Positions 1-8,496 of a DNA stretch of 22,172 nt are shown piece by piece. Under the pieces are notes generated by a model, which saw only the letters and a list, made by a program, of their open reading frames with translations, searched no databases and was not told the origin of the DNA. Both the position numbers and the translations under genes were made by a program. The first letter of the stretch is position 1, and each line of letters begins with the position of its first letter. Origin of the DNA: a virus (lineage: Duplodnaviria > Heunggongvirae > Uroviricota > Caudoviricetes); the IMG/VR virus record IMGVR_UViG_2585427761_000022; one strand, given 5' to 3'.

Positions 1-1002
1 TTACCCTCTATTGTCAAAAGGGTTCAATTCAACAGCAGCCTCTAAATGACCTGGAGCAAAATGCGCATAACGCATAGTCATTTTTATATCGCTATGCCCC
101 AGTATTTTTTGCAACACAAGAATATTTCCGCCCCGCATCATAAAATGACTGGCAAACGTGTGACGTAGCACATGAGTTAATTGCCCATCAGGAAGCTCGA
201 TCTTCGCTCTCTTAATTGCAGCGTCAAAAGCCTCATAACATGGTGAAAATAGCGCTCCTCGTTTTTTAGGAAGCATAGCCTGCAATTGAGGTGAAATCGG
301 TACAGTGCGGTTCTTCTTTCCTTTAGTTTTAACAAATGTGATTCGACCGGGCAGTACTTGAGATTGCTTTAATCCTTCTGCTTCACTCCACCGAGCACCC
401 GTCGCAAGCCCAATACGGACAACAACCCCCAAATCTTTATTCCGTGACTCATCACACGCAATCAGAAGGCGTTCAATCTCATCTACATACAGAAACGCCA
501 GTTCCTTTTCTTCCTCACGAAACTTGCGAATACCAGTCAGGGGGTTTTCACCAGACCACTCCCCAAGGCGCTTCAGTTCGGCAAAAACAGCATGTAGATA
601 TGACTGCTCGCGATTAACGGTTGCTTCACTAAGTTTTTTCTTCCCCTTGGGATTCCATTCTCCTGATAGCCTTCTTTCCCGATAAGTAGCAAACATATTT
701 TTGTCAAACTGAGAAGCAAATGGATCTCCCAGCCTGGAACAAATCGCCTCAAGTTTGACTTTGCGCTCTGCACCAGAGGACAAGGTTTTACCGTACATCT
801 CAAACCAACGAGCAATCAACTCAGAAAGACGAGGACCAGAACCATCTTGAAACTCGTCTCCAACTCTACTATTCATTAAACGGCGCTCATAAGAGAGCGC
901 CTCACTTTTTGTCGCAAACTGTTTACGAATGCGTTTTCCCGATGCCCCGTAGGGATAACATTCGCAAAGCCATTTACCTGATGGAATCTTACGAACCGAC
1001 AT
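1..1002 (-). CDS. int: P2-family tyrosine integrase, complete (stop at 1-3, ATG at 1000-1002)
   Basis: 333-aa ORF with a C-terminal catalytic block HVLRHTFASHFMMRGG...MTMRYAHFAP typical of phage tyrosine recombinases; sits at the prophage end next to the repressor as in P2. Confidence 0.9.
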   Translation of the reverse strand: MSVRKIPSGKWLCECYPYGASGKRIRKQFATKSEALSYERRLMNSRVGDEFQDGSGPRLSELIARWFEMYGKTLSSGAERKVKLEAICSRLGDPFASQFDKNMFATYRERRLSGEWNPKGKKKLSEATVNREQSYLHAVFAELKRLGEWSGENPLTGIRKFREEEKELAFLYVDEIERLLIACDESRNKDLGVVVRIGLATGARWSEAEGLKQSQVLPGRITFVKTKGKKNRTVPISPQLQAMLPKKRGALFSPCYEAFDAAIKRAKIELPDGQLTHVLRHTFASHFMMRGGNILVLQKILGHSDIKMTMRYAHFAPGHLEAAVELNPFDNRG

Positions 1003-1007
1003 TTTAG

Positions 1008-1355
1008 TTACTTATCACATAAATCAAATGCAGCCTTAGTGACATCCCCCAGACTCTTTTTTAACCCTGGGGCGGCATCATTATCTAGCCAAAATGGATT
1101 ATTGTTATCTAACGGTAACGCACCAAATGTTTTACCTTTTATTCGAGCCAAACCTGTAAGTGCATATAACTTATTATCGTCAAAATTCATCACATAAGGA
1201 TTACCATCAAGACACTGTAATTGAACCTCATCAGTATTAAATGGCCATACCCCATTGAAACTCTCACGTTCAATAGTTTTAAAAGGCATTGCGACGGCGG
1301 AAAAAGAAAACATAGATAAAAAAGTAACTAATAGTTGAACCTTTTTTACTTTCAT
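1008..1355 (-). CDS. Small secreted/periplasmic protein (115 aa) with a cleavable signal peptide and two Cys; possibly DUF2511/YebY-like (memory only)
   Basis: N-terminal signal peptide MKVKKVQLLVTFLSMFSFSAVA; RBS GAGGT 7 nt upstream of ATG; AT-rich; co-oriented between int and the upstream membrane-protein gene. Confidence 0.7.
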   Translation of the reverse strand: MKVKKVQLLVTFLSMFSFSAVAMPFKTIERESFNGVWPFNTDEVQLQCLDGNPYVMNFDDNKLYALTGLARIKGKTFGALPLDNNNPFWLDNDAAPGLKKSLGDVTKAAFDLCDK

Positions 1356-2050: not shown

Positions 2051-2455
2051 TCACCTACCCTTAGTTTCGTTATAGTCACGACCAGCGATACGGTTATTAC
2101 CACCAGAAATATTTAACTCACGTCCTGATGGCTGAGTTTCCTTTTCACTGATCGCACCTTTTAAAGCCCCAATCACCGCATTTTTCACATCTAACGAAGC
2201 TGCTCGAAAGCGAGTAATCAACTCCTGCTCATCATCGTTATAAGTTTCAGGTGAGTGAATTCCCAACACAACATACTGAACATCAAGGCCAAAACGAGAC
2301 AGCGCTGCCAAATACGCAGCATCAGGAAAGCTATCTCCTTTCTCATATCTAAGCTGAGTTAGCTTTTTGACTCCACCAATGTCGCTCATGGCAACTTGAC
2401 TAAGTCCCAATCTTTCCCTTTCCTCACGCAACCGCTGACCAATATCATTTTTCAT
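2051..2455 (-). CDS. Immunity repressor analogue (functional equivalent of P2 C / 186 CI), XRE-family HTH with a C-terminal extension
   Basis: N-terminal Cro/C1-type HTH (LGLSQVAMSDIGGVKKLTQLRYEKG); divergent from the early operon; first gene of a leftward operon ending at int. Confidence 0.85.
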   Translation of the reverse strand: MKNDIGQRLREERERLGLSQVAMSDIGGVKKLTQLRYEKGDSFPDAAYLAALSRFGLDVQYVVLGIHSPETYNDDEQELITRFRAASLDVKNAVIGALKGAISEKETQPSGRELNISGGNNRIAGRDYNETKGR

Positions 2456-2530
2456 ACAAAAACCTTGACAGGTATCTTTTTTGATACCAAAATGATTTCA
2501 CGAGCTATTAGATGATCACAATATACCACT
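2456..2530. promoter_or_regulatory. Divergent lysogenic/lytic switch region with candidate operator: inverted repeat GGTATC-T6-GATACC (2471-2488) abutting a TTGACA -35-like hexamer (2465-2470)
   Basis: 75-bp intergenic region between divergently oriented repressor and early operon; perfect 6-bp inverted repeat with 6-nt spacer. Confidence 0.5.
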
Positions 2531-2737
2531 ATGAAACAAGTTCTTCACGATACCAGATCACGCATTCCGCGTAACACCGCCACAGGTCCAAGACTGGCAC
2601 TTCGGCTGTCCCTCGAGGAGCGAGCCGTCATTGATGAAATGGCAGCTAAAGAACAACGCTCATCCTCTAACATGGCGCGCATGATCTTCCTTCGCGGCCT
2701 AGAGCTAACCCAGAAAGAACAAAACAAATCTTCCTGA
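2531..2737 (+). CDS. Small ribbon-helix-helix-like DNA-binding protein (68 aa), first gene of the early operon
   Basis: Segment LSLEERAVIDEMAAKEQRSSSNMARMIFLRGLE resembles CopG/MobC-type RHH domains; ATG start but no clear RBS. Confidence 0.5.
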   Translation: MKQVLHDTRSRIPRNTATGPRLALRLSLEERAVIDEMAAKEQRSSSNMARMIFLRGLELTQKEQNKSS

Positions 2738-2753
2738 TCAGGAGGCTAGTGGG

Positions 2754-2957
2754 ATGTCAGGTATAACCATCAATATCAATGTGAATGCCCCCTATGTATC
2801 CCTGCAGAAATATGCAGAGATAACAGGTATCCCTCTTAATACATGCAAAAAGATGTTGGCTGACGGTCGAATTATTATCCGACCCAAACGCGCCAAAATG
2901 GAAAAGCCTGAAGTAAACCTTGTGGCGATGTTAAAAGACGCTTTGGCTAACAGCTAA
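2754..2957 (+). CDS. Cox/Apl-like small HTH regulator or excisionase-type protein (67 aa)
   Basis: Strong RBS AGGAGG 9 nt upstream; HTH-like segment YVSLQKYAEITGIPLNTCKKMLADGRI; position equals cox/apl in P2/186. Confidence 0.7.
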   Translation: MSGITININVNAPYVSLQKYAEITGIPLNTCKKMLADGRIIIRPKRAKMEKPEVNLVAMLKDALANS

Positions 2958-2978
2958 AACAATGAACAGAGCACCATC

Positions 2979-3329
2979 ATGAAAAAAAACGCTAATAATC
3001 CATACTCCAAATTTCGTAATGGCGTAGAACGCCATGTACACCACGTCGCTACCAGTGCATCACGTAGTAACAGTCGCTATAACCTGAACGAGACGCACGC
3101 AACACCGGATGGCCACGCTGTAAAACAAATCGGCGAGCATGCCTGGCTGATTGAGAAAGCTGGAATCGTGGTCCACAAATGCCCACGCAATCCGTTTACC
3201 GGAAACCGCATTTTTGCATTGAACTGCGGCGACAATCACTTCGGGCAGGATTTCACATTATACGAAGCACTTCGCACGGTTGATCGTCTGCTTCGCGGGC
3301 AAAGTTTTATTAAACAGGCTGATTTATAA
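2979..3329 (+). CDS. Hypothetical early protein (116 aa)
   Basis: ORF in early operon, co-oriented and tightly packed; weak RBS; no recognisable domain. Confidence 0.55.
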   Translation: MKKNANNPYSKFRNGVERHVHHVATSASRSNSRYNLNETHATPDGHAVKQIGEHAWLIEKAGIVVHKCPRNPFTGNRIFALNCGDNHFGQDFTLYEALRTVDRLLRGQSFIKQADL

Positions 3330-3339
3330 CAGGTGCTTT

Positions 3340-3618
3340 ATGACCAAAGAGCATGCACAAGGTGTATTTATCCGTTTTATTGATTTTCGCGGTGAACTGT
3401 TATTACGCGCATCAGCCATTGACGTAGTTGTTCCATCCGAAAAAAACGCAGCTACTTACGTTTATCTGAACGGTACGCGCCTGACTGTGGAGCTTCCGTA
3501 CCAGACCGTACGAGAAATCATTAGCGAAGCTGAAAAGGCACGTCAGGTTAATGGCGATGAACCCTATATCGAAATTATTTGTATGGATTCAGAAGCTGAA
3601 ATTCAGAAAGCAGATTAA
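3340..3618 (+). CDS. Hypothetical early protein (about 92 aa; internal ATG of the 3280-3618 ORF)
   Basis: ATG at 3340 preceded by AGGTG; upstream part of the track ORF overlaps the preceding gene. Confidence 0.6.
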   Translation: MTKEHAQGVFIRFIDFRGELLLRASAIDVVVPSEKNAATYVYLNGTRLTVELPYQTVREIISEAEKARQVNGDEPYIEIICMDSEAEIQKAD

Positions 3619-3629
3619 AGGGCGTTGTG

Positions 3630-3872
3630 ATGGGCAAAGAATATAAAACTCTCATTAACAAAGCACTTGAGCGTTTTTATTTTCGCTTAAGTGCATCAGG
3701 CGCTCATGCTGAACGTGCGGCCCGTGACTCATTGACCAGAGCAATCCGAAGTCTGTATGACGTGGCTTTTTACGCTGATGATCTGGATGCACTTAACGAA
3801 CTTTCCGAGCTGATCTATGCCGCAGAATGCGGGGAACATATTGAACCGTATAAGCTGGGAAATATCGCATGA
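3630..3872 (+). CDS. Hypothetical early protein (80 aa), predicted helical
   Basis: ATG at 3630 (GTG at 3627 also possible); ORF in operon context. Confidence 0.6.
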   Translation: MGKEYKTLINKALERFYFRLSASGAHAERAARDSLTRAIRSLYDVAFYADDLDALNELSELIYAAECGEHIEPYKLGNIA

Positions 3873-3982
3873 GTATATTTATCTCATGGCTTGTTCTGAT
3901 TATTTCGGTGGTCTGCGCCATTGGGATTATGCGAATTACTAATTCAGTAAAAAAGATTGAACGCTTTTTCACTGAAGAATAA
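3869..3982 (+). CDS. Small hydrophobic peptide (37 aa, MSIFISWLVLIISVVCAIGIMRITNSVKKIERFFTEE), single predicted TM helix; not in the supplied ORF track
   Basis: ATG overlaps the stop of the preceding gene (ATGA coupling); hydrophobic core followed by a charged tail. Confidence 0.4.
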   Translation: MSIFISWLVLIISVVCAIGIMRITNSVKKIERFFTEE

Positions 3983-4068
3983 CCGCGCAAATAAGACCCC
4001 AGGTTAAATAAGAAAATGTGAAAACAATCCGCATTCGCGGAGGTATTCGCACACGCCAAGGAGGCGTA

Positions 4069-4272
4069 ATGGCAATTAAGCATTTTCCCGTCGTTCGTTT
4101 CACCTCCAAAGGACGTGAATACGAAGTTGACGAACGCCTGATTACCACAATCGACAAACACCGTTCAGAAAAGGATGCATATCACATCTATCTCACTGAC
4201 GGCACTTACTTTTGCGCCACCAACGTGGTGCAGGTAAATCTTATCAGACAGGTACAGGAGTCACGCAGATGA
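4069..4272 (+). CDS. Hypothetical early protein (67 aa)
   Basis: Strong RBS AAGGAGG 7 nt upstream of ATG at 4069; the longer GTG-initiated track ORF from 4018 is less likely. Confidence 0.6.
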   Translation: MAIKHFPVVRFTSKGREYEVDERLITTIDKHRSEKDAYHIYLTDGTYFCATNVVQVNLIRQVQESRR

Positions 4273-4514
4273 CCATTCTGGACTACATCGCTGCCAATCC
4301 GGGTTGTAGCGGTGGAGAAATCGCCGCAGCACTGAATACACCAACCACAACCATTAATGCGGAGCTACGCCGTCTCTGGCGCAGCGGTTCAGTCATAAGA
4401 AAAGAGCGCAAAACAGGCGGTCGCTTTTCTTATCAGGTAAACCCGATGCCGTTTGGGTGTAGCAACCCACTAACCCAGATGTTCAACCAGCTACTGAGGG
4501 AAATCAGAGCATGA
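4269..4514 (+). CDS. Small winged-helix-like DNA-binding protein (81 aa)
   Basis: ATGA start/stop overlap with the upstream gene; segment SGGEIAAALNTPTTTINAELRRLWRSGSVIRKE looks like a wHTH. Confidence 0.6.
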   Translation: MTILDYIAANPGCSGGEIAAALNTPTTTINAELRRLWRSGSVIRKERKTGGRFSYQVNPMPFGCSNPLTQMFNQLLREIRA

Positions 4515-4655
4515 GCACCTCCAACTGCCGGAAACCACGTCGGGCTTCAGCAGCTCATCCGGCAGCAAAACAAACTCCATTAATTCCTGTTCCGGGTCTT
4601 TCCTGCACCTTGTGGCGGGAGGCCTTCGCACATCTGTAACAAGAGGATTGCCGCA

Positions 4656-5021
4656 ATGATTCTCGCCAACGACTTTCTTGAATACCTGCTCAACACAGAG
4701 CGTGATCTTGCCGTTCGCGTGCGTGAACGTTATGACATGTACCTGAAATCCCTGCCTGTACCGCAGCTCGCTGACGGAAAGATTGTTATTGATGGTCGCT
4801 ACATGATTGACAGCCACGAGGGAAATTACAGGCTTTACCGCATTGAAGGTGGCACCCCGTCCGTTATTGGCATTTACCAGCGCCCATCCTCTGCAATCGT
4901 CAATGTGATTGCCGACAGCATCCGCATCACACATCGCCATGCCGACACAGAAGACACCGTGCTGGAAATTCAGCGGCTGGCTACAGTCTGCCGCGACACC
5001 CTGAATGGCATGACGAAGTAA
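4656..5021 (+). CDS. Hypothetical early protein (121 aa) immediately upstream of A; possible P2 B-like replication accessory (position only)
   Basis: RBS AAGAGGA about 9 nt upstream of ATG; operon context. Confidence 0.6.
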   Translation: MILANDFLEYLLNTERDLAVRVRERYDMYLKSLPVPQLADGKIVIDGRYMIDSHEGNYRLYRIEGGTPSVIGIYQRPSSAIVNVIADSIRITHRHADTEDTVLEIQRLATVCRDTLNGMTK

Positions 5022-5027
5022 ATCACT

Positions 5028-7685
5028 ATGACGGCAGAGTACATCAGGGACTGGCAACAACCGCGCCACGCAGTGGGGCGTGAAGGAACGGGGATCCCCG
5101 CTCCTGAATCCGCGCTTTCCTCCTGGCTGGATGCCTACCGGGCAGAGAACGAGCGCCGCCAGGAAATGGCTGATGCGGCGTTCTCCGCCACGCCGCTGGG
5201 CAACCTGATTAATAAAAGCCTGGACGCACAGGAAAAACAGGACAAAACAATCACACTGGCAGGAGACGCCAGAAAACAGGCACGCGGCGCGGTAGATGAG
5301 GCCATGGCCTCACTGCGCCTGCTGCCGTCCTATCTGCGCGATCCGCTTATTCGCCACCTCTCCTTCCTGCGCAAAAAACAGGAAGCCGATCGTCAGAAAG
5401 GAAAAAACGCCAGGCAGGCAGAACGCTATGCGCGTGGGACCCTGCGCAAAATATTCGAACGTCTGGAGCGCACCGATCACCGCTGGCTGACATCGGGTTA
5501 TCGCTCCCTTGCCGGACGTGAACGCCTGGACGATTTGCTTTACCTGCCGCAACTCAACAAACACCAGATACAGACGCTGGCCACCATGACGGCGGCGATG
5601 TTCAGCAGCACCTTCGAAAAACTCTGCGATGGTTTTGGCGCGACTGATGGCGAGCTGACCATGGATGTAACGCTGAAGGCGTATCAGATGCTGGCCCGCA
5701 TGGCGTTACACTTACACGCCATGCCTCCGCATTATGACGCACTGACAACAGACAAAGACCGGAGGCACGAACCGGACACAGAACTGCTGCCGGGCGCAAT
5801 CCTTCGCCTGACCTGTGCGGAATGGTGGAAACGCAAACTGTGGCTGTTACGTTGCGAGTGGAGAGAAGAACAACTCCGCGCCGCCTGTCTGGTTTCCAGA
5901 AAAACATCGCCCTATCTGAGCCAGGACGCGTTAAGCGAGTTTCGCGCACAGCGCGAGAAAACACGCGATTTCCTGAAAAGTTTCATGCTGGAAAATGAAG
6001 ACGGGTTCACGATTGATCTCGAGACGGTGTATTACGCGGGAGTAAGTAACCCGGTTCACCGTAAGGCAGAAATGATGGCCACCATGAAGGGGCTGGAACT
6101 TCTGGCCGAAGCCCGTGGCGACAAAGCGGTGTTTCTGACTGTCACCTGCCCGTCAAAATACCACGCCACAACGGAGAACGGTCATCCGAATCCCAAATGG
6201 AACGGGGCCACAATGCGCGACTCCAGCGATTACCTGGTTAACACGTTTTTTGCGGCGGTCCGCAAAAAACTGAACCGCGACGACCTGCGCTGGTATGGCA
6301 TCCGCACGGTGGAGCCTCATCATGACGGCACCGTGCACTGGCATATGATGGTCTTTGCACATCCGGAAGAAATCGACACCATTGTGTCCCATACCCGCGA
6401 TATTGCCATTCAGGAAGACCGCCACGAGCTGGGCAATGATATTACTCCGCGCTTTAAGGTGGAGTATGTCGACGGCTCAAAAGGCACGCCAACCAGCTAC
6501 ATCGCCACCTACATCGGAAAGAACCTGGACAGCCGCGCCGTGGATGGCATCGACCCGAAAACGGACAAGCCACGCGTGGACCACGAAACCGGAAAATCAA
6601 TGGCCGAGAGCGTGGAACGCGCCATCGGCTGGGCGCGTCTTCACCGCGTCCGCCAGTTCCAGTTCTTTGGTATCCCCCCCCGTCAGGTATGGCGTGAACT
6701 CCGCCGCCTTGCCAGTCAGATGGCCCGCAACCCGGAAGGTCCACAACGTCTGGAAAATGACGCAATGGATGCGGTACTCGCTGCCGCTGATGCCGGGTGT
6801 TTTGCCACCTACATTGAGAAACAGGGTGGCGTACTTGTTCCACGCAAAGACTACCTGATTCGCACCGCCTACGACCTCGCAGAAGAGCTGAACGATTACG
6901 GCGAGCAAAGCGTACAGATTTACGGGATCTGGTCGCCACAAATCGGGGAATCTTCCCGCGTGTGCACGCACCCGGATAACTGGAAGCTGGTAAGACGTAA
7001 ACCGGAAGCGGAAGACAGCGCCCGCGAAAATGGTTTTGACCTTCAGGGCGGCCCTGCCGCCCCTTGGACTCGTGGCAATAACTGTCCCCGTGTACAGGAA
7101 ACGGACAACAACGGGACAGAACAGCCGGAAGAACGGCCAGCACCGTGGCCGCAGCTCCCTGACGGCGTTGAAGTGAACGAATGGATGCGCTCACTGAAAC
7201 GGCACGAACGCCGGGCGCTGATGCGTTCGCTTCGTGACAAACAGGCAAAAAACAGCAGTGATGAAGCGCAGAGCTGGACACAGAGCCGCAAACAGCAGCG
7301 GCCTTTGCCTGATAACCACGAATTACTCGCTAAAGAATGGCGGGAGTCTGCTGAATCTCTCGGCCTGCATATCGGTGAACAACAGATGCAGCACCTGTTA
7401 CGGGGCGGCAGTCTGTACGTTGACGGCAGCATCATTGCACCGCAGGGATTTGAAATTGTACGCAAACCGGATACCCGCCTGGACAGCCGAATCACGCAGC
7501 TCTGGCAGCGCCTGAGCCGTAATCATGGCGTAAGCAGCACGGAGATCCGCCATAACCCGGTCGCCAGCTATCTGGCACAGCTGGGGGCATCAGACCCTGA
7601 AGCCGCCGCACGCCTGGCATCGCCCCCATCAGTTGCGGCGGAACGCGGTGCGCAGCCAGCACATCATCACGGGATGCCGCCTTAA
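5028..7685 (+). CDS. A: Replication initiation protein A (rolling-circle HUH endonuclease) of P2-like phages, 885 aa with a long C-terminal extension
   Basis: HUH-like motif GTVHWHMMVF and paired active-site tyrosines in TSYIATYIGK (Y-x3-Y); size and position as P2 gpA. Confidence 0.85.
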   Translation: MTAEYIRDWQQPRHAVGREGTGIPAPESALSSWLDAYRAENERRQEMADAAFSATPLGNLINKSLDAQEKQDKTITLAGDARKQARGAVDEAMASLRLLPSYLRDPLIRHLSFLRKKQEADRQKGKNARQAERYARGTLRKIFERLERTDHRWLTSGYRSLAGRERLDDLLYLPQLNKHQIQTLATMTAAMFSSTFEKLCDGFGATDGELTMDVTLKAYQMLARMALHLHAMPPHYDALTTDKDRRHEPDTELLPGAILRLTCAEWWKRKLWLLRCEWREEQLRAACLVSRKTSPYLSQDALSEFRAQREKTRDFLKSFMLENEDGFTIDLETVYYAGVSNPVHRKAEMMATMKGLELLAEARGDKAVFLTVTCPSKYHATTENGHPNPKWNGATMRDSSDYLVNTFFAAVRKKLNRDDLRWYGIRTVEPHHDGTVHWHMMVFAHPEEIDTIVSHTRDIAIQEDRHELGNDITPRFKVEYVDGSKGTPTSYIATYIGKNLDSRAVDGIDPKTDKPRVDHETGKSMAESVERAIGWARLHRVRQFQFFGIPPRQVWRELRRLASQMARNPEGPQRLENDAMDAVLAAADAGCFATYIEKQGGVLVPRKDYLIRTAYDLAEELNDYGEQSVQIYGIWSPQIGESSRVCTHPDNWKLVRRKPEAEDSARENGFDLQGGPAAPWTRGNNCPRVQETDNNGTEQPEERPAPWPQLPDGVEVNEWMRSLKRHERRALMRSLRDKQAKNSSDEAQSWTQSRKQQRPLPDNHELLAKEWRESAESLGLHIGEQQMQHLLRGGSLYVDGSIIAPQGFEIVRKPDTRLDSRITQLWQRLSRNHGVSSTEIRHNPVASYLAQLGASDPEAAARLASPPSVAAERGAQPAHHHGMPP

Positions 7686-8496
7686 CATTCATGAACTCAT
7701 CCTTTGCGGTGATCTGCTGGAACGGCAAAATTTGCACCCCCTCTTTGCCCCCGTTGGGCGCATGGATGAGCACGTTTTTAAACGCGCCACCACCACGCGC
7801 ACCCTGTAACGTTTCTTTCAGGGAGTCCATGCTTTCGCGGTTTACCTGCGCTGCACCGATGTAGATGATGCACCCGGCGTGGGATCCATTGTCGTAATAC
7901 AGTTTTCTGAACATGTCCGCCGAATGAGACAGGCTGGCCGAGAGTAATGCGCCAAGATATTCCGGCATGCCGTAAATTTCCTGGTTAATGTCCGGATTCA
8001 TCAGGTGGCACACTTTGCCAGGGCGAAACTGAAACGCATCCTTGCCATCCTGCACATACCACCATGATTCAAGATCGCTTCCGCGTCGCATGTATTTCGC
8101 CAGGGCGTGCCGTAATTTAAGCGGTTCGCCGAACATATTGCTTCGAAGCTCAAGGAATGCGTTACCGAACACAAACCAGTCCAGCGCCAGCGCCGAGAAA
8201 TCCTGCCGGGAAAGCAGCGGGTGCGGGATGTAGCACCCGAGCAATACGTTGCGCTTAAAGTAAAGCGCAGACTGATGCCAGGACGTTTGCCGGGCGGCTC
8301 TTGCCAGACCGTACCAGTCCACCGGGGTTTCATACCACCGCCCGTTATCAGCACAGTACATATTGTCCAGCAAATCATGCCCGGTCAGGCGATAAGGACC
8401 ATCAAAAGTGAATGCACTGAGCGACGATTCTTTCCTGAGCGCATCAGCGAGATCAATGCGTGAACTCATGCGCACTTTTTTATTTTTTCTGCTCAT
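7492..8496 (-). CDS. Q: Portal (capsid portal vertex) protein, P2 gpQ-like
   Basis: 334-aa ORF with conserved portal segment AAHRVPPQLMG; ATG overlaps the terminase stop (TGATG coupling); convergent with A. Confidence 0.85.
   Translation of the reverse strand: MSRKNKKVRMSSRIDLADALRKESSLSAFTFDGPYRLTGHDLLDNMYCADNGRWYETPVDWYGLARAARQTSWHQSALYFKRNVLLGCYIPHPLLSRQDFSALALDWFVFGNAFLELRSNMFGEPLKLRHALAKYMRRGSDLESWWYVQDGKDAFQFRPGKVCHLMNPDINQEIYGMPEYLGALLSASLSHSADMFRKLYYDNGSHAGCIIYIGAAQVNRESMDSLKETLQGARGGGAFKNVLIHAPNGGKEGVQILPFQQITAKDEFMNVKAASRDDVLAAHRVPPQLMGAMPGVRRLQGLMPPAVPDSWRPGYGGSPCCLRHDYGSGAARAA

What the first reader, a model, noticed from the sequence alone, without database searches (positions are those of the whole stretch)
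2531..5021. Early operon of nine small genes of unknown function, including two DNA-binding proteins up front and a 37-aa membrane peptide
Between the switch region and gene A lie tightly packed, often translationally coupled small ORFs (68, 67, 116, 92, 80, 37, 67, 81 and 121 aa). The first is RHH-like and the second Cox/Apl-like, an unusual two-regulator arrangement at the lytic promoter. The 37-aa hydrophobic peptide and the 81-aa winged-helix protein are further candidates for host-takeover or anti-defence functions, which are typically small early proteins. A further 42-aa ORF (4511-4639) is possible.
Basis: partly seen in the sequence, partly recalled or inferred. Interest (0 to 1): 0.45.

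Follow-up and report, generated by a model that had tools for sequence, protein, structure and literature searches.

The report
Early operon of a P88-like prophage
This is the ordinary early (lytic) gene block of a P2-family prophage that is very common in E. coli: the nine small genes are real and conserved, their jobs are mostly still unknown, and the suggested tenth gene is a deletion scar.

Summary
The nine ORFs exist at the stated coordinates. They form the early operon of a P88-like (Xuanwuvirus, Peduoviridae) E. coli prophage, lying between a leftward HTH repressor and replication gene A. The region is 100% identical to a RefSeq E. coli chromosome. Parts of it occur in 1408 of 5426 complete E. 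coli genomes.

Eight ORFs show coding-type substitution patterns; the 37-aa peptide shows them more weakly but is kept in a distant relative.

- The first ORF is probably a ribbon-helix-helix protein. RefSeq annotates an antisense shadow ORF in its place.
- The second ORF is Apl/Cox-like only around its HTH.
- The last ORF (121 aa) is a distant DUF5405 relative, in the same slot as P2 Orf83 upstream of A.
- DUF4761, phrog_3800, DUF4754, the membrane peptide and phrog_3459 have no detectable P2/186 counterpart.
- Predicted structures of DUF4761 and the 121-aa protein matched no solved fold convincingly.

The 42-aa ORF is not a gene. It spans the scar of a variable cargo site.

Nothing found supports or excludes anti-defence roles. 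The RHH-first switch is uncharacterised. Otherwise the feature is ordinary, so interest is low to moderate.

The parts
2051..2455 (-). Immunity repressor (134 aa). It has an N-terminal Cro/CI-type HTH and a conserved C-terminal tail, ...NNRIAGRDYNE. It is transcribed away from the operon.
   Evidence: ORF. Pfam HTH_31/HTH_3 hits are weak. PGAP names it 'helix-turn-helix domain-containing protein'.
2465..2493 (+). Early promoter Pe (predicted): TTGACA, 17 nt, CAAAAT.
   Evidence: 10 of 12 consensus match. The -35 hexamer is invariant in four diverged relatives. Its position and orientation match P2 Pe and 186 pR. The scan as a whole found no more sites than chance, so the call rests on position and conservation.
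2471..2488 (.). An 18-bp palindrome, GGTATC-N6-GATACC, that fills the Pe spacer. It is the predicted repressor operator.
   Evidence: Read directly from the sequence. In L090, where the repressor is only 34% identical, a different palindrome (GATCTATAGATC) takes its place. This is operator-repressor covariation.
2512..2575 (.). Near-invariant DNA block overlapping the start of ORF1. Predicted to hold the leftward lysogenic promoter Pc (-10 TATATT is the reverse complement of 2520-2525; -35 GTGAAG is the reverse complement of 2543-2548) together with GATCAC and (T/G)ATACC repeats.
   Evidence: Only 4 differences in 64 nt against L084, compared with about 30% divergence further into the gene. 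Third-position changes are 1 of 18 in the first codons against 30 of 50 in the rest (Fisher p 5.7e-5). The geometry matches 186 pL relative to apl. The promoter itself is inferred (8 of 12 match).
2531..2737 (+). ORF1, 68 aa: probable ribbon-helix-helix (Arc-like) DNA-binding protein. It has no Shine-Dalgarno sequence.
   Evidence: phrog_3431 at 1e-28. RHH_1/RHH_5 at E 0.075, RelB at 0.044 and Arc by hhalign at 0.0099, all in the same register. Codon-position differences of [18,4,32]. Only 9 clusters among 5.8 billion proteins.
2754..2957 (+). ORF2, 67 aa: Apl/Cox-like HTH protein and candidate excisionase. It has a strong AGGAGG ribosome-binding site.
   Evidence: phrog_575 at 1.2e-27. hhalign against 186 Apl gives prob 86%, E 4.6e-6, and against P2 Cox E 0.0013. 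No Pfam Phage_Cox hit and no BLASTP match to P88 Cox. Codon-position differences of [12,4,43].
2979..3329 (+). ORF3, 116 aa: DUF4761 protein, with a disordered basic N-terminus followed by a five-strand-plus-helix core.
3340..3618 (+). ORF4, 92 aa: phrog_3800 protein with a near-invariant N-terminal QGVFIRFIDFRGELLLRASAID. It is absent from 2 related loci.
   Evidence: 1.6e-58. dN/dS 0.22. Homologues are confined to Enterobacteriaceae.
3630..3872 (+). ORF5, 80 aa: DUF4754 protein. Its sequence pattern looks all-helical, but it was not modelled.
   Evidence: Pfam DUF4754 at 1.9e-52. dN/dS 0.15.
3869..3982 (+). ORF6, 37 aa: single-pass membrane peptide, with its start overlapping the ORF5 stop (ATGA).
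   Evidence: Kyte-Doolittle 2.81 for residues 3-21. Full length in 76 loci with dN/dS 0.56. A 41-aa counterpart sits in the same place in the distant relative L084. PGAP annotates it.
3983..4068 (.). An 86-nt gap, which is variable cargo site 1. It is empty here and holds 0.35-0.85 kb elsewhere, usually a 136-aa ORF. It contains the hairpin TCCGC-ATTC-GCGGA at 4028-4041.
4069..4272 (+). ORF7, 67 aa: phrog_3459 protein. Its sequence pattern suggests mostly beta strand, but it was not modelled. It has a strong ribosome-binding site, and the profile of phrog_19053 (246 positions) contains both this protein's and ORF8's sequence.
   Evidence: ORF7 matches phrog_19053 positions 84-135 and ORF8 matches positions 162-243. 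dN/dS 0.14.
4269..4514 (+). ORF8, 81 aa: MarR-type winged-helix protein with an ATGA overlap onto ORF7. It is missing from 9 related loci.
   Evidence: Pfam MarR_2 at 28.7 bits (cut-off 27) and HTH_24. phrog_1687. dN/dS 0.22.
4515..4655 (.). Scar of variable cargo site 2, not a gene. Positions 4548-4583 are the last codons of a 'Derepression'-family gene (..QQLIRQQNKLH*). The 42-aa ORF (4511-4639) and the PGAP 'ash' pseudogene (4540-4659) lie here in the other two frames.
   Evidence: This short form occurs in 27 of 83 loci. Other loci carry 0.8-1.9 kb at this point. P88 gp14 is Pfam Derepression. There is no codon-position bias.
4656..5021 (+). ORF9, 121 aa: distant DUF5405 relative in the P2 Orf83 / 186 gp31 slot, ending 6 nt before gene A.
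   Evidence: phrog_3237. Distant homologues hit Pfam DUF5405. hhalign against P2 Orf81 gives E 7.6e-6 and against Orf83 E 2.9e-4, with controls at 0.12 or above. AlphaFold2 pLDDT 86.5. Foldseek matches a DUF5405 phage protein at E 7e-4.
5028..7685 (+). Replication gene A (Phage_GPA). It is truncated here by a deletion whose junction lies at 7621/7622.
   Evidence: Pfam at 3.6e-131. 35% identical to 186 A and 31% to P2 A. Colinearity with the intact prophage ends at 7621.

Best explanation
Region 2531-5021 is the early lytic operon of a P88-like (genus Xuanwuvirus, family Peduoviridae) prophage of E. coli.

**Proposed mechanism**
1. The operon is transcribed rightward from a sigma-70 promoter at 2465-2493. 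The spacer of that promoter is an 18-bp palindrome, which is the operator of the leftward-encoded HTH repressor.
2. A leftward lysogenic promoter probably lies face to face with it, inside a near-invariant DNA block that overlaps the first 15-18 codons of ORF1. This is the geometry seen in phage 186.
3. The first two products are the lytic-side regulators: a probable ribbon-helix-helix protein and a small Apl/Cox-like HTH protein. My best guess, with about 50% confidence, is that the two jobs combined in Cox/Apl are split here. On this view the RHH represses the lysogenic promoter (the Cro role) and the 67-aa protein directs excision.
4. Next come accessory genes specific to this phage lineage: DUF4761, phrog_3800, DUF4754, a 37-aa membrane peptide, phrog_3459 and a dispensable MarR-type winged-helix protein. 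Two sites among them accept variable cargo and both are empty here.
5. These accessory genes most plausibly act on the host or on phage development early in the lytic cycle, as fil and dhr do in 186. No specific activity can be assigned.
6. The operon ends with a DUF5405-like protein directly ahead of replication gene A, as in P2 and 186.

**Shown:** gene reality, family membership, operon layout, cargo sites, the conserved DNA block, and operator-repressor covariation.

**Inferred:** promoter use, which protein binds where, and all biochemical roles.
For: **Identity**
- 90-94% nucleotide identity to Xuanwuvirus phages 520873, P884B11 and P88.
- 100% identity to E. coli OkiPb01713 beside yecA/tyrP.
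- Part of the region is present in 1408 of 5426 complete E. coli genomes.

**Layout**
- Repressor on the minus strand, nine tightly packed plus-strand ORFs, then Phage_GPA.
- The same order is annotated in P88 and in phage 520873.

**Coding status**
- dN/dS 0.14-0.29 for six ORFs.
- Codon-position patterns for ORF1 and ORF2.
- The 37-aa peptide is kept in a distant relative.

**Switch**
- Pe matches the consensus at 10 of 12 positions, with an invariant -35.
- The palindrome changes when the repressor changes, while the RHH and Cox-like proteins stay the same.
- Synonymous change is suppressed in the first 18 codons of ORF1, p 5.7e-5.
- 186 places pL at the same distance around the apl start.

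**Regulators**
- PHROG Arc-like and Cox-like at 1e-28 and 1e-27.
- 186 Apl by hhalign at E 4.6e-6.

**End of the operon**
- The DUF5405 link rests on three independent methods.

**Cargo sites**
Against: - No expression, transcription-start or binding data exist for this element.
- ORF1 has no Shine-Dalgarno sequence.
- All RHH hits for ORF1 to curated models fall below threshold, and the Arc hhalign score is no better than the best negative control.
- The predicted leftward promoter matches the consensus at only 8 of 12 positions, and the scanner did not call it.
- ORF2 resembles Apl only over about 25 residues.
- attP lies outside the window, so excisionase binding sites could not be sought.
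- The accessory proteins gave no functional lead from any library or fold search.
- This copy sits in a deleted, probably defective prophage, so the operon may no longer matter to this host.
Confidence: 0.8

Rival explanations
1. The Cox/Apl-like ORF2 does both jobs, switch repression and excision, as in P2 and 186. The RHH would then be something else: a CII-like factor for establishing lysogeny, or an Arc-like autoregulator that damps the early promoter.
For: Cox and Apl are dual-function in every characterised P2-family phage (annotations; PMC3448106). 186 also carries a second regulator, cII, next to apl. In P22, Arc is an autoregulator of its own promoter.
Against: The gene order is reversed relative to 186, with the RHH first. 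At 67 aa, ORF2 is shorter than Cox (91 aa) and Apl (87 aa), and it aligns with them only over the HTH. RHH proteins are usually repressors (general knowledge). No data discriminate between the two views.
Confidence: 0.3
2. Some of the conserved middle genes (DUF4761, phrog_3800, DUF4754, the 37-aa peptide, phrog_3459, the wHTH) are host-takeover or anti-defence factors.
For: They are small, early and specific to this lineage. They have no P2/186 counterpart and no convincing solved-fold match. 186 carries fil and dhr at the equivalent position. The operon accepts accessory cargo at two sites.
Against: There is no positive evidence. Five of them are present in every related locus examined and are under purifying selection. 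That pattern fits a core phage function better than the fast turnover typical of counter-defence genes. No anti-defence library was available to test against, and PADLOC (a defence library) gave nothing.
Confidence: 0.25
3. ORF1 is not a gene. On this view the real gene is the antisense 45-aa ORF (2545-2682, minus strand) that PGAP annotates, or the stretch is purely regulatory DNA.
For: PGAP calls the antisense ORF in an identical chromosome, and the spread of other E. coli records sampled carries the same 'hypothetical protein' label over this stretch. ORF1 lacks a ribosome-binding site. The antisense frame also stays open in relatives.
Against: The antisense frame shares its third positions with ORF1, so it is a shadow ORF. 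In that frame second positions change more than first positions ([4,18,32]), which is atypical for coding sequence. In the ORF1 frame the pattern is the classic [18,4,32]. Outside the conserved block, ORF1 keeps 82% identity with conservative changes, against 64% with radical changes in the antisense frame (my reading of the translations). The longer 60-aa antisense form is broken by a stop in relatives. Four separate RHH models align to ORF1 in one register. The antisense ORF would run against the early promoter.
Confidence: 0.1

Closest known systems
Early region of Escherichia phage P88 and phage 520873 (Xuanwuvirus, Peduoviridae)
   Same: Same genes in the same order from DUF4761 to gene A, at 82-99% protein identity. 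Phage 520873 also has the same repressor, RHH and Cox-like genes at 99-100% identity.
   Different: P88 has a different immunity module: a 93-aa C repressor and a 141-aa true Phage_Cox protein, with no RHH. P88 also carries about 1.9 kb of cargo between the wHTH gene and the 121-aa gene: Ead/Ea22-like, a membrane protein, a Band_7 lipoprotein and a Derepression protein. Here only a scar remains.
Early lytic operon of coliphage 186 (apl-cII-fil-dhr ... DUF5405-orf84-A)
   Same: Face-to-face lytic and lysogenic promoters, with the lysogenic promoter straddling the start of the first lytic gene. Two regulators come first. Small non-essential host-directed genes follow. A DUF5405 gene lies shortly upstream of A (separated from it by orf84 in 186), and A is homologous at 35% identity.
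   Different: The regulators differ: an RHH plus a 67-aa Apl-like protein here, against Apl plus the 169-aa CII. The repressor differs too: 134 aa here, against the 192-aa CI. There are no homologues of fil, dhr, DUF2732, the DksA-like zinc finger or orf84.
Early operon of coliphage P2 (cox-orf78-B-orf80-83-A)
   Same: The overall layout is shared, and the 121-aa protein is related to Orf81/Orf83. A is homologous at 31% identity.
   Different: There is no homologue of the replication gene B, of Orf78, of Orf80 or of Orf82. ORF2 does not hit Pfam Phage_Cox.
Arc/Mnt ribbon-helix-helix repressors of the phage P22 immI region
   Same: A small protein with a beta-strand, helix, helix pattern encoded immediately downstream of the promoter it may control. 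The alignment to Arc runs across the whole domain in the correct register.
   Different: Sequence similarity is marginal (hhalign E 0.0099, prob 4%). ORF1 has a 20-residue N-terminal extension. In P22, Arc controls an antirepressor gene rather than the main lysis-lysogeny switch.

Membership tests
P2-family (Peduoviridae) early lytic operon | Begins beside, and is transcribed away from, the immunity repressor gene, with a lytic promoter overlapped by the repressor's operator. | tested here: met
   Repressor at 2051-2455 on the minus strand. Pe lies at 2465-2493 with a palindrome in its spacer that covaries with the repressor. Promoter use itself is inferred.
P2-family (Peduoviridae) early lytic operon | Ends with the rolling-circle replication gene A (Pfam Phage_GPA). 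| tested here: met
   Phage_GPA at 3.6e-131. 35% identical to 186 A and 31% to P2 A.
P2-family (Peduoviridae) early lytic operon | The first gene is a Cox/Apl-type protein. | tested here: inconclusive
   The Apl/Cox-like gene is second, not first. phrog_575 at 1e-27 and Apl by hhalign at E 4.6e-6 over 25 residues.
P2-family (Peduoviridae) early lytic operon | Carries the accessory genes shared by P2 and 186: DUF2732, the DksA-like zinc finger and DUF5405. | tested here: inconclusive
   Only DUF5405 has a distant counterpart, ORF9. DUF2732, the zinc-finger protein and P2 B have none.
Genus Xuanwuvirus (P88-like phages) | High nucleotide identity and gene synteny with P88, P884B11 and 520873. 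| tested here: met
   88-94% identity over 47-100% of the region. The gene order is the same.
Pfam Phage_Cox (PF10743) | Match to the family model at or above the gathering score. | tested here: not met
   ORF2 gives no hit at E below 0.1. It has no BLASTP alignment to P88 Cox, which does match the model at 5e-28. ORF2 may work like Cox/Apl but is not a member of this Pfam family.
Ribbon-helix-helix (Arc/MetJ/CopG) superfamily | An N-terminal beta-strand followed by two helices, with a match to an RHH model. | tested here: inconclusive
   RHH_1 scores 13.5 bits against a cut-off of 20.5. RHH_5 gives E 0.075, RelB 0.044 and Arc by hhalign 0.0099, all in one register. The PHROG family labelled Arc-like matches at 1e-28. 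The PDB profile search was empty. The fold was not modelled.
MarR-type winged helix-turn-helix | Match to the Pfam model above the gathering score. | tested here: met
   ORF8 scores 28.7 bits on MarR_2 (cut-off 27) and 27.6 bits on HTH_24 (cut-off 21.9).
Pfam DUF5405 (P2 Orf83 / 186 gp31) | Sequence or fold match, together with a position just upstream of gene A. | tested here: met
   ORF9 itself gives no direct Pfam hit. Its homologue P0136 scores 29.0 bits, above the 21.6 cut-off, P0142 sits exactly at the cut-off, and P0124 falls just below at 20.7. hhalign gives E 2.9e-4 to Orf83 and 7.6e-6 to Orf81. Foldseek gives E 7e-4 to a DUF5405 phage protein. The position is met, with a 6-nt gap to A. 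The relationship is distant.
Phage anti-defence or host-takeover proteins | Demonstrated inhibition of a defence system or host process, or homology to a protein with that activity. | not testable with these tools
   No anti-defence library was available. PHROG gave no hit in its 'host takeover' category apart from a Ren-like match at E 0.051 for the wHTH. PADLOC was empty apart from one weak HTH-region hit to a CARF model for the wHTH (E 8.9e-4).

The most novel reading that the evidence does not exclude
The immunity module seen here (134-aa HTH repressor, RHH, 67-aa Apl-like protein) may be a third type of P2-family developmental switch, mechanistically distinct from the P2 and 186 types. 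In it the repressor-of-lysogeny and excisionase roles of Cox/Apl would be divided between two proteins. In addition, one or more of the five universally conserved small proteins (DUF4761, DUF4754, the 37-aa membrane peptide, phrog_3459, the DUF5405-like protein) may be a host-takeover or counter-defence factor carried by roughly a quarter of E. coli genomes.
Probability: 0.25. Interest if true: 0.5.

Novelty: new member of a known kind. Interest (0 to 1): 0.25.

Why it matters
P88-like prophages are among the commonest in E. coli. Parts of this operon occur in 1408 of 5426 complete genomes, and this immunity type occurs in 524, including O157:H7 strains.

None of the nine early proteins appears to have been studied. 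A full-text search for DUF4761 or DUF4754 returned no paper. If the RHH-first switch works as proposed, it would add a third regulatory design to the P2 and 186 models that are used to study bistable switches and transcriptional interference.

There is also a practical point. In the identical record and in every other E. coli record sampled, RefSeq labels the RHH stretch as a 'hypothetical protein' (the antisense ORF) and does not list the probable RHH gene. Beyond that, the finding is a routine prophage early region whose genes are already catalogued.

Tried and rejected
- **PDB sequence searches.** Searches with ORF9, ORF3 and ORF2, and profile searches with the ORF1 and ORF2 alignments, returned only chance-level hits.
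- **Paralogy among the ORFs.** I suspected that ORF4 and ORF7 share a small beta domain. hhalign picked the expected region but only at E 0.19, so this is not supported.
- **DUF4754 and P2 B.** BLASTP gave E 0.008 against a 24-protein database and hhalign gave E 0.023. Rejected as chance.
- **Giant repetitive proteins.** The ones that matched ORF9 in the exhaustive search are low-complexity artefacts.
- **NCBIfam, PADLOC and Rfam.** NCBIfam gave only sub-threshold hits, and PADLOC gave one weak HTH-region hit for the wHTH (E 8.9e-4). Rfam found no RNA family in the whole window.
- **Species-representative genomes.** The scan for the RHH found none. The scan for DUF4754 found only E. albertii and one genome labelled Vagococcus, so the operon is taxonomically narrow.
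- **Literature.** There are no papers on DUF4761 or DUF4754. Papers naming CP-933T (which I only suspected might be this element; not checked) and P88 say nothing about these genes.
- **Structure jobs.** Both went to ORF9 and ORF3, so the RHH and Cox-like folds were not modelled.

Full report
**What is there**

The window carries, in order:
- an integrase (1-1002, minus strand);
- two small minus-strand genes;
- a 134-aa HTH repressor (2051-2455, minus strand);
- an 885-aa Phage_GPA replication gene.

Gaps between the nine ORFs are 6-21 nt. There are three ATGA stop/start overlaps and one 86-nt gap.

**Identity**

- The region is 90-94% identical to Xuanwuvirus (P88-like, Peduoviridae) phages 520873, P884B11 and P88.
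- It is 100% identical to a prophage next to yecA/tyrP in E. coli OkiPb01713, and 99.9% identical to E. coli 55989.
- Some part of it occurs in 1408 of 5426 complete E. coli genomes.
- The particular repressor/ORF1/ORF2 module occurs in 524 of them, including O157:H7 strains.
- P88 and phage 520873 annotate the same gene order.

**Are the ORFs genes?**

I compared the window with 80 related IMG/VR loci.
- Six ORFs (DUF4761, the 92-aa ORF, DUF4754, the second 67-aa ORF, the wHTH and the 121-aa ORF) have dN/dS of 0.14-0.29, with most variable sites at third positions.
- ORF1 and ORF2 are invariant in that set. Relatives found through the protein database differ at 54 and 59 nucleotides, with codon-position counts of [18,4,32] and [12,4,43].
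- The 37-aa ORF is less constrained (dN/dS 0.56). It is full length in 76 loci. In the distant relative L084, where DUF4754 has visibly diverged, it persists as a 41-aa peptide with the same hydrophobic core and the same ATGA overlap. Its Kyte-Doolittle maximum is 2.81.

**ORF1 against the antisense ORF**

PGAP annotates an antisense 45-aa ORF in place of ORF1. That frame shares third positions with ORF1, so it is a shadow ORF. Three things favour ORF1:
- In the antisense frame, second positions vary more than first positions.
- Its longer form is interrupted by a stop in relatives.
- Outside the conserved DNA block its product is less conserved than ORF1's.

**The 42-aa ORF**

It shows no codon-position bias ([4,3,4]). 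It lies on a junction. In 27 of 83 loci the wHTH gene is followed directly by the last roughly 100 nt before the 121-aa gene. In the other loci, 0.8-1.9 kb of cargo sits between them. Positions 4548-4583 are the last codons of a Derepression-family gene that is intact in P88. PGAP marks a third frame there as an 'ash' pseudogene. I conclude that it is a scar.

A second cargo site lies in the 86-nt gap after the 37-aa gene.

**Family assignments**

| ORF | Assignment |
|---|---|
| ORF1 (68 aa) | phrog_3431 'Arc-like repressor', 1e-28. Sub-threshold hits to RHH_1, RHH_5, RelB and, by hhalign, P22 Arc, all aligning strand-helix-helix in one register. The Arc score is no better than the best negative control. 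Probable, not proven. |
| ORF2 (67 aa) | phrog_575 'Cox-like', 1e-27. hhalign to 186 Apl at E 4.6e-6 over the HTH. No hit to Pfam Phage_Cox and no BLASTP similarity to P88 Cox. |
| ORF3 (116 aa) | Pfam DUF4761 |
| ORF4 (92 aa) | phrog_3800 |
| ORF5 (80 aa) | Pfam DUF4754 |
| ORF7 (67 aa) | phrog_3459 |
| ORF8 (81 aa) | Passes Pfam MarR_2 |
| ORF9 (121 aa) | Distant DUF5405 relative. No direct Pfam hit, but homologues at 30-53% identity hit DUF5405. hhalign gives E 7.6e-6 to P2 Orf81 and 2.9e-4 to Orf83, with all other P2/186 proteins at 0.12 or above. The AlphaFold2 model (pLDDT 86.5) matches a DUF5405 phage protein by Foldseek at E 7e-4. |

ORF9 thus occupies the same slot as P2 Orf83, directly upstream of A; 186 gp31 lies nearby, one gene further from A.

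**Comparison with P2 and 186**

Apart from A, the Apl-like HTH and the DUF5405 link, none of the small proteins resembles any P2 or 186 early protein. There is no counterpart of P2 B, of DUF2732, or of the DksA-like zinc finger.

**Attempts to assign function**

- PDB sequence searches, NCBIfam, PADLOC and Rfam gave nothing above threshold.
- The 92-aa, DUF4761 and 121-aa families are confined to Enterobacteriaceae.
- The literature search found no paper naming DUF4761 or DUF4754.

**The switch**

- A 10-of-12 sigma-70 match, TTGACA-17-CAAAAT, lies at 2465-2493.
- Its spacer is the palindrome GGTATC-N6-GATACC.
- In relative L090 the repressor is only 34% identical and the palindrome is replaced by GATCTATAGATC. 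ORF1 and ORF2 are unchanged there. This is classic operator-repressor covariation.
- From 2512 to 2575 the DNA is nearly invariant across relatives. It shows 4 differences in 64 nt, against about 30% further into ORF1. Third-position changes are 1 of 18 in the first codons against 30 of 50 in the rest (p 5.7e-5).
- That block contains a weak leftward promoter candidate: -10 TATATT four bases upstream of the ORF1 ATG on the opposite strand, and a -35 hexamer starting 13 nt inside the gene. 186 pL has almost the same spacing around apl.
- I infer face-to-face lytic and lysogenic promoters, with binding sites for ORF1 and/or ORF2 in the block. This is inference.

**Most likely mechanism**

The region is an early operon. 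It starts with the lytic-side regulators, continues with lineage-specific accessory genes interrupted by two cargo sites, and ends with a DUF5405-like gene and A.

I favour a split of the Cox/Apl roles, with the RHH repressing the lysogenic promoter and ORF2 acting as excisionase. The rival, that ORF2 does both jobs and the RHH is an autoregulator or establishment factor, is nearly as likely.

The anti-defence idea is not excluded, but it has no support. Five middle and late genes are present in every related locus and are under purifying selection. That fits core early functions somewhat better than counter-defence cargo. By contrast, the wHTH is absent from 9 loci and the 92-aa gene from 2.

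**Verdict**

This is a real, conserved and already catalogued early region of a very common prophage family. The points of modest interest are the uncharacterised RHH-first switch, the apparent mis-annotation of its first gene in RefSeq, and a firmly conserved 37-aa membrane peptide. Interest 0.25.

Noticed in passing
window 7621-7690 (gene A 5028-7685 +, portal ORF 7492-8496 -): Colinearity with the intact prophage of E. coli OkiPb01713 stops at 7621/7622. There gene A is 940 aa and is followed by parM. Here A codon ~865 is fused to the interior of the portal gene. The whole A-Q interval is therefore missing, as is the 3' end of the portal gene. That interval is the P2 defence hotspot described in PMC9122126, and in P2 it also holds the cos site. 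This copy is probably a defective prophage.
   Followed up: partly
window 2066-2116 (repressor C-terminus) and 1973-2023 (N-terminus of the 216-aa membrane protein, 1385-2035 -): The repressor ends with ..GGNNRIAGRDYNE, and the next gene's product begins with ..GSNNRVAGRDFHE. The motif is kept in both proteins in diverged relatives, including a repressor that is only 34% identical overall. The 216-aa protein has a C-terminal membrane anchor, and its relatives are tagged Pfam Flk_N. A shared partner or a regulated interaction is possible, but this is unexplained.
   Followed up: partly
window 2545-2682 (-): RefSeq/PGAP annotates a 45-aa antisense 'hypothetical protein' (WP_001673482.1) in the identical record in place of the probable RHH gene. 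Other sampled records among the 524 E. coli genomes with this module carry the same 'hypothetical protein' label over this stretch, with no RHH gene listed.
   Followed up: yes
related loci L002, L012, L025, L034 and others; the insertion points correspond to window 3983-4068 and 4515-4560: Two variable cargo sites lie inside the early operon. Site 1 usually holds a 136-aa ORF with no family match. Site 2 holds combinations of an Ead/Ea22-like protein, a 67-aa membrane protein with a Band_7/SPFH lipoprotein, a 183-aa multi-HTH protein and a Derepression-family protein. These sites are distinct from the published A-Q hotspot.
   Followed up: partly
L090 1288-1955, compared with window 2051-2737: One relative combines identical RHH and Cox-like genes with a different repressor (34% identity) and a different Pe palindrome. 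It also lacks the two genes between the integrase and the repressor. The half-sites of both palindrome types (GATACC and GATC(AC)) recur in the invariant block at the ORF1 start.
   Followed up: partly
window 1008-1355 (-): A 115-aa DUF2511 protein, whose N-terminus looks like a signal peptide (by eye; not run through a predictor), sits in a 35% GC stretch between the integrase and the membrane-protein gene. It looks like a lysogenic-conversion moron. A hotspot between integrase and repressor was reported for K139-like P2 relatives in PMC9122126.
   Followed up: no
window 4028-4041: The hairpin TCCGC-ATTC-GCGGA lies in the only sizeable gap of the operon, at the position where P2 and 186 have a terminator. 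It is followed by a T-run only on the minus strand.
   Followed up: no
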